Source: a virus (taxonomy: Duplodnaviria; Caudoviricetes). Taken from it: DNA of 64,000 nucleotides. A program made the position numbers and the translations under genes. The number at the start of each line of letters is the position of its first letter. The first letter of the stretch is position 1. This document shows positions 11,121 through 17,480 of the stretch, one piece after another. A model generated the notes under the pieces. The model saw only the letters and a program-made list of their open reading frames with translations. It had not been told where the DNA came from and did no database searches. The DNA is taken from positions 160,001 to 224,000 of the IMG/VR virus record IMGVR_UViG_3300011242_000002. The stretch is one strand, 5' to 3'.

Positions 11121-11136
11121 CTATATTACTGACTTG
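11121..11136 (+). promoter_or_regulatory. phiKZ-type early promoter
   Basis: CTATATTAC-TGACT-TG. Confidence 0.7.
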
Positions 11137-12372: not shown

Positions 12373-12629
12373 CTGTCTTACAACTTCAGCTCAGCGGCAA
12401 GCATGGTTTCGTGCTGACCAAGCCTGAGCGTGCTAACCCCGCAGACATCAAGCTGATGGAAGGTGACCTTCGCCTGCAGGATAACAAGTTGATGCTGGGA
12501 GAGTCTGAACTCGCCACCGTCACCAACCGTAACCTGAAGCTCAACACCTCGATCCTGATGACCGCGGTCGGGGATCTGCGCCGCATTGTGCAGCAGCTGC
12601 GCTACTTTAGCCAAACGCTGCGTGCCTAA
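12369..12629 (+). CDS. hypothetical protein
   Basis: AGGAG RBS, ATGA overlap. Confidence 0.7.
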   Translation: MTVLQLQLSGKHGFVLTKPERANPADIKLMEGDLRLQDNKLMLGESELATVTNRNLKLNTSILMTAVGDLRRIVQQLRYFSQTLRA

Positions 12630-13286: not shown

Positions 13287-14153
13287 ATGAAGAGTTTAAT
13301 TGCCAAGATCATGTCCAACGAAAACCTGCCGGACAGCGACAGCCGGAAAAGCTACAAGCTGATCCCGGTACCGGATAACCACGAGATCGAGTTTCGCCGC
13401 CTTAACCTGAGCATCCCCGAGATGATCTTCCACGCCCTGTTCGGTGACAGCGATCCCATCACCGTCCCTTTGCAGGACAGCGGTAACGTGTACATCCTGG
13501 AGAACGGTAAAACCATCTCCACCTTTGGCAGCGCACCCCCGCCGCATACCGAGCAAGCTATCGCTGAGCAGCCAAAGGACACACCGTTTAATCAGTCGTA
13601 TTTCGATCAGCTGATGCAGCTCTTTGATCGGGTGACCGATCAGGCGCAGCCGGAAGAATATCCGTGGTTCCAGGTAGTGGCCGCCGCCTTGGCAGGTGCC
13701 CCTGCGAGCCTACCCCCAGAGGGGTTATGCGTGCCGTTTGCGATGGCCGATGGCAGGTTGACCGATCGGGCGCGTGCTTTCGTTAAAACGCTGAACAGCG
13801 CGCTGTTGAACAGCAAACCGATGCTGGCGTTGGAAGGGGCGAAACTGATCAAGGCGAACTACGTGTACCTGGTGCAGATTATCCCTGCCCCGTACGTGGA
13901 GAAGTCAGCGTATGAAACCCAGACCGCCAAAGAAGAGTTGCTGAACCGCGACATTTCCCACAGCGTGGTCAACGCCGTGCAGCGGGCGCTGAAGATGTAT
14001 AACCACGGCGCCACGTTTGCGGTACTGACGCCTGCGCTGCGCATTAGTCCTAAAGAGCGAGTCGCAATCACCGCTATCTTTAAGAAATGGCATGACGTAG
14101 ATGTCAAGTTCCGGTTTGTGGATGATCTCTGCACCCTGTTCTATTTTGACTAA
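13287..14153 (+). CDS. hypothetical protein
   Basis: AGGAG RBS before ATG 13287. Confidence 0.75.
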   Translation: MKSLIAKIMSNENLPDSDSRKSYKLIPVPDNHEIEFRRLNLSIPEMIFHALFGDSDPITVPLQDSGNVYILENGKTISTFGSAPPPHTEQAIAEQPKDTPFNQSYFDQLMQLFDRVTDQAQPEEYPWFQVVAAALAGAPASLPPEGLCVPFAMADGRLTDRARAFVKTLNSALLNSKPMLALEGAKLIKANYVYLVQIIPAPYVEKSAYETQTAKEELLNRDISHSVVNAVQRALKMYNHGATFAVLTPALRISPKERVAITAIFKKWHDVDVKFRFVDDLCTLFYFD

Positions 14154-14294
14154 CCATCAGGGGTCCGTTGAGACCCCTAATTATTTCCGTTATGAAAATA
14201 AGTAATAAAATACATAGCAACCCCTTAGTATGTTAGGTAGTCGATGTCGAGGTTCATTAGAATCATCCGGTCGGCTACCCTTCATGGAGGATTC

Positions 14295-14408
14295 ATGCAT
14301 CTATCTAAACAGGCTTTAGCGCGCCAGCGGTTAGCACAGCTGAATATGTGGTTAATGATCTGTGGTTTTGAACCGCTGTGGACCAACCAGACCCTCAAAG
14401 AAAAATAA
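14295..14408 (+). CDS. 37-aa hypothetical peptide (not in ORF track)
   Basis: GGAGG RBS; MHLSKQALARQRLAQLNMWLMICGFEPLWTNQTLKEK. Confidence 0.4.
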   Translation: MHLSKQALARQRLAQLNMWLMICGFEPLWTNQTLKEK

Positions 14409-14440
14409 AACCAGTTTCCCTTTTAAACAAGGATGACACC

Positions 14441-14602
14441 ATGGGTTTCTTTACGCGGTTTTTCTGTACCCACAAATACAAGCTTGTTCGCACCATCCAC
14501 GGTGATGAAATCATCTACCGTAACTATAAACGTAGCGAATGGAAGTGTCGACACTGCGGTAAAATTATATTCAGCAAATACCTGGAATACATCGGTAAAT
14601 GA
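14441..14602 (+). CDS. small Zn-ribbon-like protein (DUF1660-like)
   Basis: FCTHKY...CRHCGK pattern; AAGGA RBS. Confidence 0.6.
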   Translation: MGFFTRFFCTHKYKLVRTIHGDEIIYRNYKRSEWKCRHCGKIIFSKYLEYIGK

Positions 14603-14610
14603 GGTGAGTC

Positions 14611-14796
14611 ATGCCAGCCATTCACGTGTCACAGACCATCGCCGATAAGCTGGATGCTAAAATGGTTCAGTTGATCACGGAAGGACAACGCAAGATAAAG
14701 CGCGCAACGATAAATGAACTGGCGATTCAATACGGCATCGATAAGGTCACCCTTGAGCGCGTCATTGCCTACGAATCAAAGCAGGAGTTCGTATGA
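14611..14796 (+). CDS. small hypothetical protein, possibly ribbon-helix-helix-like
   Basis: GAGG RBS; N-terminal strand AIHVS followed by two helices. Confidence 0.55.
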   Translation: MPAIHVSQTIADKLDAKMVQLITEGQRKIKRATINELAIQYGIDKVTLERVIAYESKQEFV

Positions 14797-15134
14797 AAAC
14801 AATCCCCGATCTGGATTTAGAATTCGCCGCATTAGTTGGTGACTTGTCTGAAGAAATAAATGACTGTTGTTATAATGACGACAGTATTTTGTGTGCAGCA
14901 TTGCACGGGATGTTAAACGAGCAATTGGCGGCGCGTGATAAACGTCACCGTGATTACATTGCGCGACTGTATCCTGATTATCCTGATTTAGACGCTCGTG
15001 TCATTGAATTGATAAAATTGACTGGTGGATGGCCGATGAATTTTGGCGAGCCAGTTACGCCGTTAAAAGAGTTACCTGAAAAGTATTACCTGGAATATTT
15101 CAGGAGCTCGGGTCGAGAAGACTTGCTGCAGTAA
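14793..15134 (+). CDS. hypothetical protein
   Basis: AGGAG RBS, ATGA overlap. Confidence 0.7.
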   Translation: MKTIPDLDLEFAALVGDLSEEINDCCYNDDSILCAALHGMLNEQLAARDKRHRDYIARLYPDYPDLDARVIELIKLTGGWPMNFGEPVTPLKELPEKYYLEYFRSSGREDLLQ

Positions 15135-15141
15135 GTTAGTA

Positions 15142-15325
15142 TAATTCTGAGATGAATGCTCAACGTTGAGCACCCTTAATAGCAGGATGGCGGCGTGTGT
15201 ATTCGCAAAGTCGTTACACCCCACGGTCACCGCATGGACCGTGGTAATGAGAGACTTGGGACGCAGCTGAAAGTATGCTGGTAAATAGCCGTAACCACGA
15301 CCAACCGCGTGGCATCTCAGAATTA
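15142..15325 (+). ncRNA. putative structured ncRNA closed by a 13-bp stem
   Basis: TAATTCTGAGATG/CATCTCAGAATTA; inner stems TGCTCAACGTTGAGCA, AAGTC/GACTT, CCACGGTC/GACCGTGG; intergenic. Confidence 0.6.
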
Positions 15326-15343
15326 GACAGGGGAATGTAGTAA

Positions 15344-15565
15344 GTGCATACAACAAAAATAAAGTACCATCAAAGAAACGGCAGTGGCTGCTATTCACTG
15401 AATGGCAAACCGTTATCTATTGAGGACGAACAACATTATCAGGTAGAGATGCGCCGCGCCAGGGAACTCTACCACATCCACAAGAAGTTCATCGATGGAC
15501 TCCCACAGTGGATCAAATCACTGGGTAAACGCTTTAACATCAAAGCGCTTACGCAGTACCTTTAA
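15344..15565 (+). CDS. hypothetical protein
   Basis: 73 aa GTG-start ORF ending before next RBS. Confidence 0.5.
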   Translation: MHTTKIKYHQRNGSGCYSLNGKPLSIEDEQHYQVEMRRARELYHIHKKFIDGLPQWIKSLGKRFNIKALTQYL

Positions 15566-15583
15566 CCAAAAGGAGACGATTCT

Positions 15584-16165
15584 ATGGCAACCATCAATTA
15601 CGATGCGATTGCGCAAGAACTCAAACGTGGTCTAATCGACAACGAAAATACAGCAGCGCACCTGTGTATGGATAAGCCCATGCTGCTAAAAGAGCTGTAT
15701 ACCTTAGCATTCGGTGGTCCACGCCAAACGGGGAAAACCAAATGGATGATCGAGCATTTAATTCGTGATCCTGATTCTCGTTTGATCGCACTCAACCTAA
15801 CCATGCGTGAAGCTATCATTCAACAGCTTTCAGCGTATGCAAGGCTTGACGAAAATCGCGAAGGTGATGAACCACGACCAGATGCTATTTGGCACGCAGG
15901 CGGGATCGGCTGGGTGCAGGTGCATAAAGAAACCGCGGAATTAATTCGTAAAGATCCTAGGGTTGTCGAGCAGGCGATGCTTCGAATTATCACGGTGCCG
16001 ATGTTGCGGACCATGATTAATCAAGACACCGTCTTGCCAATCAACATCAGCCAGATCTTTATCGACCAGCGCGTTCAGGCGTTCCAGCTGATCCGCGCTA
16101 GTAAATACTATACGTGGTTGGCCAAAGTTTCTGATAAACCTATTCTGACCTGGCTGATCGACTAA
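15584..16165 (+). CDS. P-loop-containing protein
   Basis: GPRQTGKT Walker A; QIFID as a degenerate Walker B. Confidence 0.65.
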   Translation: MATINYDAIAQELKRGLIDNENTAAHLCMDKPMLLKELYTLAFGGPRQTGKTKWMIEHLIRDPDSRLIALNLTMREAIIQQLSAYARLDENREGDEPRPDAIWHAGGIGWVQVHKETAELIRKDPRVVEQAMLRIITVPMLRTMINQDTVLPINISQIFIDQRVQAFQLIRASKYYTWLAKVSDKPILTWLID

Positions 16166-16189
16166 ACTAATTTGCAGGGTACGAATCAA

Positions 16190-16515
16190 TGAGTCTGGCT
16201 GATAACCAGCTCACAGCGATAATAGCTTAGACCTACGGCGCGCCCCTAAGTCCGTAATAGCCGAATGCACAAAGCACTACTGCTCATCCGGTAGGCATTC
16301 GATCGCTGAACCATTATTCGATATGACACGGCCCACACAGCCAACCGTCAAAACCAAATTGACCCTGCGGCCGCCGCCTAATATACACGTAGCCGATGCG
16401 CGAAGACGTGATGGCGTTTGAGCGGCAGGGATCATAGGCCCAGGTACGTCCTGGACCGACCTTATTAAGTTAATCGGTTCGAGTGTTGCCATCCTAGCTG
16501 ACAAGGGTTCAGCAT
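16190..16515 (+). ncRNA. putative structured ncRNA with H-type pseudoknot
   Basis: CAGCGAT/ATCGCTG, CTTAG/CTAAG crossed by TACGG/CCGTA, CGAATGC/GCATTCG, CCCTGC/GCAGGG; no credible ORF. Confidence 0.55.
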
Positions 16516-16528
16516 AACGGAGGCGAAC

Positions 16529-16828
16529 ATGAACTTATATCTGGTAGAGCGGACCGACACCGTCTGGTATGATGAGTATGTGGGTATGATCGTTGCGGCA
16601 GCGTCTGAAGATGCAGCGCGCATGATTCACCCGTCAGCATACAAACCGCTGGATAAAGCCGATGCGTTGCATTGCATAAAAGAGTCGGCGTGGTGTTTTG
16701 AGAATGATCGCAATCGTCGTAGTACGTATTGGGTGTTTTTGGAACATACATCGACTCTGCGCGTTACCCTAGTGGGAACAACGCACCTGGCTCCCTGCAT
16801 CCTGCTCTTGGATTTTAATGCCGGTTAA
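16529..16828 (+). CDS. phage hypothetical protein
   Basis: GGAGG RBS; MNLYLVERTD..YDEY.G.IVAA.SE..AR..HP pattern common in phages. Confidence 0.75.
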   Translation: MNLYLVERTDTVWYDEYVGMIVAAASEDAARMIHPSAYKPLDKADALHCIKESAWCFENDRNRRSTYWVFLEHTSTLRVTLVGTTHLAPCILLLDFNAG

Positions 16829-16864
16829 CTTAACGCCCGGGTAAGCCCGGGCACCTCTTCATAT

Positions 16865-16954
16865 TTGAAGCCCTGGGTCACTGCGAACTTCAACGTAGTC
16901 ACAAACATTCGCGATAATGGACTGTACGAGCTGCAGCCGTATCCAGGGCTTCAA
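16865..16954 (+). ncRNA. structured element closed by a 12-bp stem
   Basis: TTGAAGCCCTGG/CCAGGGCTTCAA. Confidence 0.5.
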
Positions 16955-16962
16955 TCCCAATC

Positions 16963-17062
16963 GTCCGGATAGTTTAATGAGAACAACGTCCTGGAAAGTG
17001 GTATAACTTACATGCCGCGTAATGGACGAAGGTGGATGAGGTTTGAGTCCTCCCTCCGGACA
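16963..17062 (+). ncRNA. tRNA-like cloverleaf with extended anticodon arm (non-canonical or pseudo-tRNA)
   Basis: Acceptor GTCCGGA/TCCGGAC, T8A9, D-arm GTTT-AATGA-GAAC, CGTCC/GGACG arm with 32-nt insert, T-arm GAGG-TTTGAGT-CCTC; no encoded CCA. Confidence 0.6.
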
Positions 17063-17082
17063 ACCTTTTGCTCTACGTCGTA

Positions 17083-17172
17083 CTGCCTGATGAGTTGCCG
17101 ACGTTAACTGCAACGAAACCTCGAGCAGTCTGGTCCCGCAAGGGAGTTCCAACCGGGCTGCTCTTGTCGCAG
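17083..17172 (+). ncRNA. type I hammerhead ribozyme
   Basis: Stem I CTGC/GCAG, core CTGATGA (17087-93), stem II GTTGC/GCAAC, GAAAC (17115-19), 12-bp stem III extension, GTC triplet 17166-68. Confidence 0.85.
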
Positions 17173-17347
17173 GGTTATCTCATTGACCAGGGTGTCTCGA
17201 GCTAACGCAGCCTACTGACTATTTGAAATTACTACCGGGTTCTTTGGAATAGTCAGCGGGATGCGGTAATTTGACCGGTTACCTGTATCAGCATCGCAGG
17301 GGTGCGATGTACGGTTCATGTTCTTGTGTTGAGTAGATGTAGCGGCT

Positions 17348-17384
17348 AAAACCCCGGGGCTAAACACCTCGGGGTTTTATGCCG
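17348..17384 (+). terminator. terminator ending the ncRNA cluster
   Basis: AAAACCCCGGGG-CTAAACA-CCTCGGGGTTTT-ATGCCG. Confidence 0.8.
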
Positions 17385-17421
17385 GTTAAAAGCCAAATGC
17401 ATAATGCAGTTAATTTCAAAT

Positions 17422-17437
17422 CTATATTACCGCAGTG
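17422..17437 (+). promoter_or_regulatory. phiKZ-type early promoter
   Basis: CTATATTAC-CGCAG-TG with upstream TTTCAA. Confidence 0.75.
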
Positions 17438-17480
17438 ATAGATGTAAATAAACCCCCTTCTTCGTTCAGGAGATACCGCT

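What the first reader, a model, noticed from the sequence alone, without database searches (positions are those of the whole stretch)
17083..17172. Intact type I hammerhead ribozyme
Seen: the full catalytic core is in register: CTGC-CTGATGA-GTTGC(11 nt)GCAAC-GAAAC...GTC-GCAG. Stem III continues after a small internal loop as GAGCAGTCTGGT/ACCGGGCTGCTC, with an inner CCC-GCAA-GGG hairpin. Established: cleavage occurs 3' of the GUC (after 17168), leaving a 2',3'-cyclic phosphate and a 5'-OH. It starts about 20 nt after the tRNA-like element, recalling tRNA-linked theta (HDV-like) ribozymes of gut phages but from another class. Stem I is short (4 bp), so activity may need tertiary contacts.
Basis: partly seen in the sequence, partly recalled or inferred. 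Interest (0 to 1): 0.85.

Follow-up and report, generated by a model that had tools for sequence, protein, structure and literature searches.

The report
Pseudoknotted hammerhead ribozyme in jumbo phage
A complete, evolutionarily conserved self-cutting hammerhead RNA lies in a gene-free stretch of a giant phiKZ-like phage, between a tRNA-shaped RNA and a folded ~215-base RNA that it most likely cuts free; the ribozyme class is well known, but databases do not detect this tRNA-linked phage subfamily and nobody has tested what it does.

Summary
Window 17083-17172 (+) holds every hammerhead core residue in register, with a GUC cleavage triplet and a predicted cut at 17168/17169.

A 6-bp pseudoknot answers this: leader ACGUCG (17075-17080) pairs with loop II CGACGU (17099-17104).

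A descriptor search finds one such motif in the whole 273-kb phage genome. It finds none in 300 shuffles of the window.

The same element is single-copy in related jumbo phages: Salmonella SA002, Erwinia pEa_SNUABM_48, and Agricanvirus AH06, RAY and Ea35-70. A short-stem-III form occurs in unrelated smaller phage contigs. In two of those it is fused to the CCA end of a real tRNA.

Across 13 distinct sequences, 96.8% of pair cells are standard pairs (70.9% when shuffled). Nineteen of 27 pairs show compensatory changes, in all three stems and in the pseudoknot.

Rfam does not reach threshold (best 21 bits against 48.5), and GenBank records leave the region unannotated.

Most likely role: it cuts the transcript between a tRNA-like RNA and a conserved structured RNA, giving that RNA a 5'-OH end. 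Activity and purpose are untested.

It is a new member of a known kind. This scan noted the same family earlier in another jumbo-phage genome.

The parts
16963..17061 (+). tRNA-shaped RNA upstream of the ribozyme. It has a 7-bp acceptor stem, D and T arms, and about 32 nt in place of the anticodon loop, forming a hairpin with the conserved loop AACUUAC.
   Evidence: Rfam tRNA model 16.7 bits, E 1.9. ARAGORN does not call it. Homologous elements with the same loop motif were read in SA002, pEa48, AH06 and RAY.
17075..17080 (+). Pseudoknot 5' strand ACGUCG. It pairs with loop II positions 17099-17104.
   Evidence: Six Watson-Crick pairs in the sequence. It covaries across 13 sequences: position 2 is CG, AU or UA; position 6 is GC, CG or UA. 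The pseudoknot was not part of the covariance model that made the alignment.
17083..17086 (+). Stem I, 5' strand (CUGC).
   Evidence: Pairs with 17169-17172. All four stem I pairs show compensatory changes among homologues.
17087..17093 (+). Catalytic core C3-U4-G5-A6-U7-G8-A9.
   Evidence: Invariant in all homologues, except U7 to C in pEa_SNUABM_48. By general hammerhead knowledge this is the one tolerant core position.
17094..17114 (+). Stem II (GUUGC/GCAAC) with an 11-nt loop II (CGACGUUAACU). The first six loop bases form the pseudoknot 3' strand.
   Evidence: 100% of stem II cells are paired and two pairs covary. The loop consensus NGACNU(U/A)AAAN is conserved.
17115..17118 (+). Core G12-A13-A14-A15.1.
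   Evidence: Invariant in all homologues.
17118..17167 (+). Stem III, expanded to 50 nt. Basal pairs are A17118-U17167 and C17119-G17166. Then comes an internal loop, a 12-bp helix (17123-34 with 17152-63), an inner GCAA hairpin (17135-44) and a 7-nt bulge.
   Evidence: Eleven of 12 modelled stem III pairs covary. The insert ranges from 16 nt in small-phage forms to 110 nt in Agricanvirus.
17168..17169 (+). Predicted scissile bond: C17 (17168) then G1.1 (17169).
   Evidence: Position in the conserved motif. The triplet is GUC, GUA, GUU or UUC in homologues, never with G at position 17. The chemistry is inferred from the family, not measured.
17169..17172 (+). Stem I, 3' strand (GCAG). It is also the first four bases of the downstream RNA.
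17169..17384 (+). Downstream structured RNA ('RNA X', about 215 nt). It has a conserved single-stranded 5' tail, a multi-branch domain with three hairpins, and a long terminal hairpin (17343-17384).
   Evidence: RNAalifold on 5 homologues gives 62 pairs, 14 with compensatory changes. The region has only short ORFs.
17405..17441 (+). phiKZ-type promoter-like motif (TTTCAAAT-CTATATTAC-CGCAGTG) just after the RNA cassette. It marks the start of the next transcription unit.
   Evidence: CTAYATTAC occurs 7 times in the window, always on the + strand, against 0.58 expected. It matches the promoter consensus tabulated in PMC7058600 Table 2.

Best explanation
This is an active type I hammerhead ribozyme of a phage-specific, pseudoknot-stabilised subfamily. 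The + strand is transcribed through the tRNA-shaped RNA and then the leader ACGUCG. As soon as stem II is made, the leader pairs with loop II. This pseudoknot holds the short 4-bp stem I beside stem II. Once the long stem III and the GUC-GCAG segment emerge, the three-way junction closes. The 2'-OH of C17168 then attacks the 17168/17169 phosphodiester. The 5' product is the tRNA-like RNA plus the whole ribozyme, ending in a 2',3'-cyclic phosphate. The 3' product starts at G17169 with a 5'-OH. It is the conserved ~215-nt structured RNA that ends in a long hairpin at about 17384. Four base pairs cannot hold the products together, so the cut is effectively irreversible. The ribozyme therefore acts as host-RNase-independent punctuation. 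It separates a tRNA or tRNA-like module from the next RNA on the same transcript and sets that RNA's 5' end. What is shown: the motif, its conservation, covariation of all helices and the pseudoknot, one copy per genome, and a structured downstream RNA. What is inferred: catalysis, co-transcription of the three modules, and the purpose of the cut.
For: The motif is complete and in register. There is one hit in the 273-kb genome and 0 in 300 shuffles at the observed stringency. A covariance model built only from the SA002-group sequences finds window 17073-17176 at 54.9 bits, E about 1e-12, with the same 3' end. It finds exactly one copy each in SA002, pEa_SNUABM_48, AH06 and RAY. On 13 distinct sequences, 96.8% of cells are paired against 70.9% in shuffles and 27-44% with slid partners. 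Nineteen of 27 pairs have compensatory changes. The pseudoknot, which was not in the model, has two pairs with three pair types each. Core residues are invariant, and position 17 is C, A or U. The sequence just after the cut is a conserved structured RNA. The distance to the upstream tRNA-like RNA varies from about 12 to about 190 nt, whereas the downstream RNA always abuts the cut. Pseudoknots between stems I and II are needed for fast cleavage in other hammerheads (Perreault 2011, PMC3088659).
Against: Rfam models stay far below threshold (21.1 bits against 48.5) and align the region in a different, type III register. Stem I weakens to 3 bp in SA002 and to 2 bp plus mismatches in L041. Stem II of the RAY group has a G-A mismatch and a bulge. 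The minimum-free-energy fold of the isolated 90-mer pairs part of the core with the 3' side of stem III, so inactive conformers compete. No promoter was located for the cassette: the nearest upstream CTAYATTAC motif is at 11121. Downstream RNAs of different lineages share no detectable motif, so 'maturation of one particular RNA' cannot be the general role.
Confidence: 0.75

Rival explanations
1. The ribozyme is active, but its selected role concerns the upstream product. It gives the tRNA or tRNA-shaped RNA a compact 3' trailer ending in a 2',3'-cyclic phosphate. This could stabilise the RNA, block 3' exonucleases and polyadenylation, or make an RNA that looks like a damaged tRNA to the Rtc repair system or to tRNA-directed defences. 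Release of the downstream RNA would be incidental.
For: The subfamily is linked to tRNAs. In L079 and L069 the model hit overlaps the CCA of tRNA-Leu and tRNA-Arg by 3 nt, so A76 is the first pseudoknot base. In all jumbo phages a tRNA-shaped RNA lies 12-190 nt upstream. The downstream partner differs between lineages: a stand-alone RNA here, a long mRNA leader in L079 and L069. RAY, AH06 and pEa48 encode RtcB, the ligase for exactly these ends.
Against: The window's own complete genome and SA002 lack RtcB. L074, L078 and L089 have no tRNA directly upstream. The spacer to the tRNA-like RNA varies in jumbo phages, whereas the junction with the downstream RNA is fixed. The effect of a cyclic phosphate on stability or signalling is inferred from general knowledge only.
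Confidence: 0.2
2. The motif is a hammerhead-derived structural domain that no longer cleaves, or cleaves too slowly to matter. It is kept as part of a larger folded RNA.
For: Stem I is very short (2-4 bp). Stem III carries a 50-110 nt branched insert. Stem II is irregular in Agricanvirus. Rfam scores are sub-threshold.
Against: Every catalytic residue is invariant across sequences whose helices have diverged extensively. Position 17 avoids only G. The single core change is at the tolerant position 7. A covarying pseudoknot of the kind shown to speed cleavage is maintained (PMC3088659). Short-stem-III relatives look like textbook hammerheads.
Confidence: 0.08
3. It is a type III hammerhead, as the Rfam alignment reads it. 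The upstream GUC (17077-79) would be the cleavage site, and stem III would form between 17072-76 and 17119-24.
For: The only Rfam hits are to RF00008 in this register: 21.1 bits here and 28-30 bits in SA002, pEa48 and L041.
Against: Only 7 nt lie between that GUC and CUGAUGA, so no stem I hairpin can form. The alignment marks two non-canonical pairs in its stem III. The upstream GUC is explained as the invariant centre of the covarying pseudoknot. By eye, the proposed stem III pairing is not kept in AH06 or L010 (sequences).
Confidence: 0.02

Closest known systems
Pseudoknot-stabilised hammerhead ribozymes of bacteria, prophages and phages (Perreault et al. 2011, PMC3088659)
   Same: Identical catalytic core and three-way junction. 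A Watson-Crick pseudoknot links the stem I side to stem II in place of loop-loop contacts. Located in phage intergenic regions.
   Different: Here the pseudoknot joins a 5' single-stranded leader, 2 nt upstream of a 4-bp open stem I, to a conserved 11-nt loop II. Stem III is expanded to 50-110 nt and branched in jumbo phages. The subfamily sits beside tRNAs or tRNA mimics. I could not check whether these sequences were in that paper's data set.
Rfam hammerhead families RF00163 (type I) and RF00008 (type III), clan CL00010
   Same: Same ribozyme class and the same core consensus.
   Different: No match at gathering score in the window or anywhere in the genome. The best sub-threshold hit is RF00008 at 21.1 bits against 48.5, in the wrong register. 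Even the short-stem-III relatives gave no hammerhead hit at E <= 0.1. Standard annotation therefore misses the subfamily.
Theta ribozymes: minimal HDV-like ribozymes next to tRNAs in gut phages (Kienbeck et al. 2024, PMC10879173)
   Same: A small self-cleaving ribozyme directly downstream of a phage tRNA, on the same transcript.
   Different: A different fold and class. By general knowledge of HDV-like ribozymes, they cut at their own 5' end and so can create the tRNA 3' end. This type I hammerhead cuts at its own 3' end, 70-170 nt past the tRNA. It therefore defines the 5' end of the next RNA. No link to suppressor tRNAs or recoding was seen here.

Membership tests
Hammerhead ribozyme (type I) | Core C3 U4 G5 A6 N7 G8 A9 between stems I and II | tested here: met
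   CUGAUGA at 17087-93. Invariant in 13 homologues apart from N7 = C in pEa48.
Hammerhead ribozyme (type I) | Core G12 A13 A14 followed by the A15.1-U16.1 pair, with G10.1-C11.1 closing stem II | tested here: met
   GAAA at 17115-18; A17118-U17167; G17094-C17114. Columns 47/215 and 22/43 are invariant pairs.
Hammerhead ribozyme (type I) | Cleavage triplet N-U-H, with H not G | tested here: met
   GUC at 17166-68. Homologues have GUC, GUA, GUU or UUC.
Hammerhead ribozyme (type I) | Three helices around the core, supported by covariation, with the 5' and 3' ends in stem I | tested here: met
   Stem I has 4 of 4 pairs covarying, stem II 2 of 5, stem III 11 of 12. Overall 96.8% of cells are paired against 70.9% shuffled.
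Hammerhead ribozyme (type I) | Tertiary contact between the stem I and stem II sides (needed for activity at physiological Mg2+) | tested here: met
   A 6-bp pseudoknot, 17075-80 with 17099-104. It is 96.2% paired, and two pairs show three pair types each.
Hammerhead ribozyme (type I) | Score at or above the Rfam gathering threshold for a hammerhead model | tested here: not met
   0 hits at gathering score. RF00008 gives 21.1 bits against 48.5. This is an annotation criterion, not a biochemical one. The long stem III insert and the pseudoknot lie outside those models.
Hammerhead ribozyme (type I) | Site-specific self-cleavage giving 2',3'-cyclic phosphate and 5'-OH ends | not testable with these tools
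Theta / HDV-like ribozyme | Nested double-pseudoknot HDV fold with cleavage at the ribozyme's 5' end | tested here: not met
   No HDV-like family reached threshold in the window, and none appeared in the local E <= 10 scan. The element is fully explained by a hammerhead fold.

The most novel reading that the evidence does not exclude
The cassette exists to make a tRNA-shaped RNA that ends in a ribozyme-made 2',3'-cyclic phosphate. This would be a deliberate mimic of a nuclease-damaged tRNA. It could switch on or titrate the host Rtc/RtcB RNA-repair pathway, or act as a decoy for tRNA-cleaving anti-phage defences. Relatives that carry their own RtcB (RAY gp48, AH06, pEa48) would use the same ends directly. 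From memory, unverified here: RtcR is reported to be activated by tRNA fragments with cyclic-phosphate ends (Hughes et al. 2020).
Probability: 0.06. Interest if true: 0.85.

Novelty: new member of a known kind. Interest (0 to 1): 0.5.

Why it matters
Hammerheads are common in phages, but almost none has an assigned job. This subfamily gives a concrete, testable one. It is single-copy and conserved across a clade of phiKZ-like jumbo phages that includes RAY, a culturable phage described as nucleus-forming (PMC10299810). It always sits at the boundary between a tRNA or tRNA mimic and a long structured RNA. It shows that a second ribozyme class, besides the HDV-like theta ribozymes, has been recruited next to phage tRNAs, but with the opposite cutting geometry. 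It also exposes an annotation gap. Rfam misses these elements, and several GenBank records annotate nothing, or short hypothetical ORFs, over conserved RNA.

Tried and rejected
- **Rfam at gathering score.** The window and the rest of the genome gave nothing: no tRNA, intron or second ribozyme. This rules out a two-ribozyme circular-RNA arrangement as far as described families go.
- **Type III reading.** Rejected, because no stem I is possible in that register.
- **MAFFT alignment of full-length elements (A1).** It misaligned the 3' strands because stem III length varies. I replaced it with a covariance-model alignment. The model still misplaces the 3' end of the RAY group, so RAY was analysed by hand and left out of the counts.
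- **Exact scan for a downstream-RNA 17-mer in viral contigs.** 0 hits.
- **Syntenic loci of Moabitevirus and Wellington.** No hammerhead.
- **Phage-encoded ligase as an obligate partner.** RtcB, Rnl2-type and T4 Rnl1-type Pfams are absent from the window's genome. The PF09511 control rang nowhere, so that result is uninformative.
- **A shared motif in the RNAs downstream of the cut across lineages.** None found.
- **Two crossing helices proposed for the downstream RNA by another reader.** One is not conserved and the other is invariant, so the proposal is unsupported.
- **Y-RNA-like signal in window 14100-16960.** None.
- **Literature.** No accessible paper links hammerheads to jumbo or nucleus-forming phages.

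Full report
**What is in the sequence.**
The order is: stem I 5' strand CUGC; core CUGAUGA; stem II GUUGC/GCAAC with an 11-nt loop; GAAA; a long stem III; GUC; and stem I 3' strand GCAG.

Stem III starts with A17118-U17167 and C17119-G17166. It continues past a CUC/UU internal loop as a 12-bp helix with an inner GCAA hairpin. The predicted scissile bond is 17168/17169.

I wrote a type I hammerhead descriptor to ask how often this arises by chance. It requires stem I, CUGANGA, stem II, GAAA, stem III with one internal loop, and NUH. It hits once in the window and once in the whole 273,301-bp genome, on both strands. In 300 dinucleotide-preserving shuffles of the window it gives 0.023 hits per window at loose settings. 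At the observed stem lengths it gives none.

**The missing tertiary contact.**
Stem I has only 4 bp. Two nucleotides upstream of it, ACGUCG (17075-80) is perfectly complementary to the first six bases of loop II, CGACGU (17099-104).

I first saw this by comparing homologues. The leader/loop pairs are AAGUCG/CGACUU in SA002 and pEa48 and UUGUCG/CGACAU in L037 and L041. They are ACGUCU/AGACGU in AH06, GAGUCC/GGACUU in L074 and L078, and AUGUCG/CGACAU in L079.

Pseudoknots between the stem I and stem II sides are a documented way to make hammerheads fast at low Mg2+. Perreault et al. report them in about 40% of hammerheads, including phage examples (PMC3088659).

**Host genome and relatives.**
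The window is bases 160001-224000 of an IMG/VR virus record with direct terminal repeats. It encodes split multisubunit RNA polymerase subunits and a family B-like DNA polymerase.

Its nearest GenBank relatives are Salmonella phage SA002 and Erwinia phages pEa_SNUABM_37 and 48. More distant relatives are the Agricanvirus phages, including RAY. RAY is described as nucleus-forming in PMC10299810.

Homologous hammerheads were read directly in SA002, pEa48, AH06, RAY, Ea35-70 and Desertfox, and in IMG/VR contigs L010, L036, L037 and L041. Seven further Agricanvirus phages match the whole ~800-nt non-coding region at about 79% identity.

A covariance model built only from the SA002 group finds the window element at 54.9 bits with the correct ends. 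It finds one copy per genome in the window's phage, SA002, pEa48, AH06 and RAY, and none in Moabite.

**A wider subfamily linked to tRNAs.**
An exact-pattern scan of viral contigs for the core plus loop II returned five more members: L069, L074, L078, L079 and L089. These have an ordinary short stem III. L069 and L089 carry amidoligase or QueE-like genes. L079 has an amidoligase ORF just downstream of its hammerhead. These are not obviously jumbo phages.

In L079 the model hit (853-927) overlaps tRNA-Leu (772-855) by its CCA. In L069 the hit (12441-12509, minus strand) overlaps tRNA-Arg (12507-12583) in the same way. The A of CCA is therefore the first pseudoknot base.

In both contigs the cut is followed by roughly 200 nt of non-coding leader, and then an amidoligase-type ORF.

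**Covariation.**
The figures below are from the model-derived alignment of 13 distinct sequences, with the pseudoknot added by hand.

| Measure | Observed | Control |
|---|---|---|
| Pair cells that are standard pairs | 96.8% | 70.9% shuffled; 27-44% with slid partners |
| Pairs with compensatory changes | 19 of 27 | about 12 in shuffles |
| Stem I pairs that covary | 4 of 4 | – |
| Stem II pairs that covary | 2 of 5 | – |
| Stem III pairs that covary | 11 of 12 | – |

Pseudoknot position 2 shows CG, AU and UA. Position 6 shows GC, CG and UA.

The stems were fitted by the model, which favours them. The pseudoknot was not in the model, so it is an independent test.

All core residues are invariant except U7 to C in pEa48. 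Position 17 is C, A or U.

The weak points are:
- stem I of 3 bp in SA002;
- stem I of 2 bp plus mismatches in L041;
- a G-A mismatch and a bulge in stem II of the RAY group.

**Why databases miss it.**
Rfam gives no hit at gathering score in the window or the rest of the genome. Permissive scans give only RF00008 at 21-30 bits against 48.5. Those hits use a type III register with the upstream GUC.

That register leaves 7 nt for stem I, which is impossible. Its GUC is the invariant centre of the pseudoknot.

Even the short-stem-III relatives gave no hammerhead hit at E <= 0.1. GenBank records annotate nothing over the region, or short hypothetical ORFs.

**Context in the window.**
- Upstream is a tRNA-shaped RNA (16963-17061). 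It has about 32 nt in place of the anticodon loop and a conserved AACUUAC hairpin loop. It is present in every jumbo relative.
- The spacer between this RNA and the ribozyme varies from about 12 to about 190 nt.
- Directly after the cut comes a ~215-nt RNA with a conserved single-stranded 5' tail, a three-hairpin domain and a long terminal hairpin. It has 62 predicted pairs, 14 of them compensatory.
- Immediately after that lies a phiKZ-type promoter-like motif.
- The fixed junction is therefore ribozyme to downstream RNA, not tRNA-like RNA to ribozyme.

**Mechanism and purpose.**
I conclude that the ribozyme cuts the primary transcript at 17168/17169.

One product is the tRNA-like RNA plus ribozyme, ending in a 2',3'-cyclic phosphate. 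The other is the structured RNA, starting with a 5'-OH. The chemistry is inferred from the family.

The general role is most likely RNase-independent punctuation between a tRNA or tRNA-like module and the next RNA.

A rival, which is not exclusive, puts the selected function in the upstream cyclic-phosphate product. RAY, AH06 and pEa48 encode RtcB, but the window's phage and SA002 do not. A phage ligase is therefore not an obligate partner.

The subfamily also occurs in smaller phage contigs that carry no jumbo-phage markers. An explanation specific to the phage nucleus is therefore not favoured.

**Verdict.**
This is a real hammerhead and a new member of a known kind, with moderate interest. 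This scan had already noted the same family in another jumbo-phage genome.

Noticed in passing
window 16963-17061: A tRNA-shaped RNA with acceptor, D and T arms. The anticodon loop is replaced by about 32 nt that form a hairpin with the conserved loop (U)AACUUA(C). It is conserved in SA002, pEa48, AH06, RAY and L010. ARAGORN does not call it and the Rfam tRNA model gives 16.7 bits. SA002 encodes CCA after it; the window does not.
   Followed up: partly
window 17169-17384: A conserved ~215-nt structured RNA after the cut, with 14 compensatory pairs in 5 sequences. No Rfam family matches and its function is unknown. Two crossing helices proposed by another reader were not supported by the alignment.
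   Followed up: partly
window 11121, 17422, 23662, 31601, 37438, 45471, 61688: CTAYATTAC occurs 7 times, always on the + strand (0.58 expected). At 17405-17441 the wider context matches the phiKZ/201phi2-1-type promoter consensus listed in PMC7058600 Table 2.
   Followed up: partly
window about 16166-16195, against L001 1080-1165 and L002 831-916: Relatives carry a tRNA-Tyr(GTA) just after the homologue of the 193-aa ORF. The window's phage lacks it. Its whole genome has no Rfam- or ARAGORN-detectable tRNA.
   Followed up: partly
L079 772-927; L069 12441-12583 (minus strand): In two unrelated smaller phage contigs the same hammerhead subfamily is fused to the CCA end of tRNA-Leu and tRNA-Arg. 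It is followed by a ~200-nt leader and an amidoligase-type gene.
   Followed up: partly
L062 16489-17727 (RAY gp48); L063, L064, L065: RAY, AH06 and pEa_SNUABM_48 encode an RtcB RNA ligase (over 420 bits to PF01139). This enzyme joins the kind of ends a hammerhead makes. The window's phage and SA002 have none.
   Followed up: partly
L048 536-599 (RAY, about 1.1 kb upstream of its hammerhead): A sub-threshold match to the tRNA-like part of the Y-RNA-like family YrlA (RF02553): 44.5 bits against 69, E 9e-7. No counterpart was detected in window 14100-16960.
   Followed up: no
L049 1105-1323 (Ea357_200A); L004 1839-2057 (AH06_220): Hypothetical CDS annotated in GenBank inside the conserved non-coding RNA downstream of the ribozyme. 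They are probably spurious.
   Followed up: no
window 16865-16954: A long hairpin-closed element (GAAGCCCTGGG ... CCAGGGCTTC) directly upstream of the tRNA-shaped RNA. The 88%-identity match to SA002 covers window 16196-16936, so only part of the element was compared. At 16936-16956 SA002 has an extra ~500 bp with a 128-aa CDS that the window lacks.
   Followed up: no
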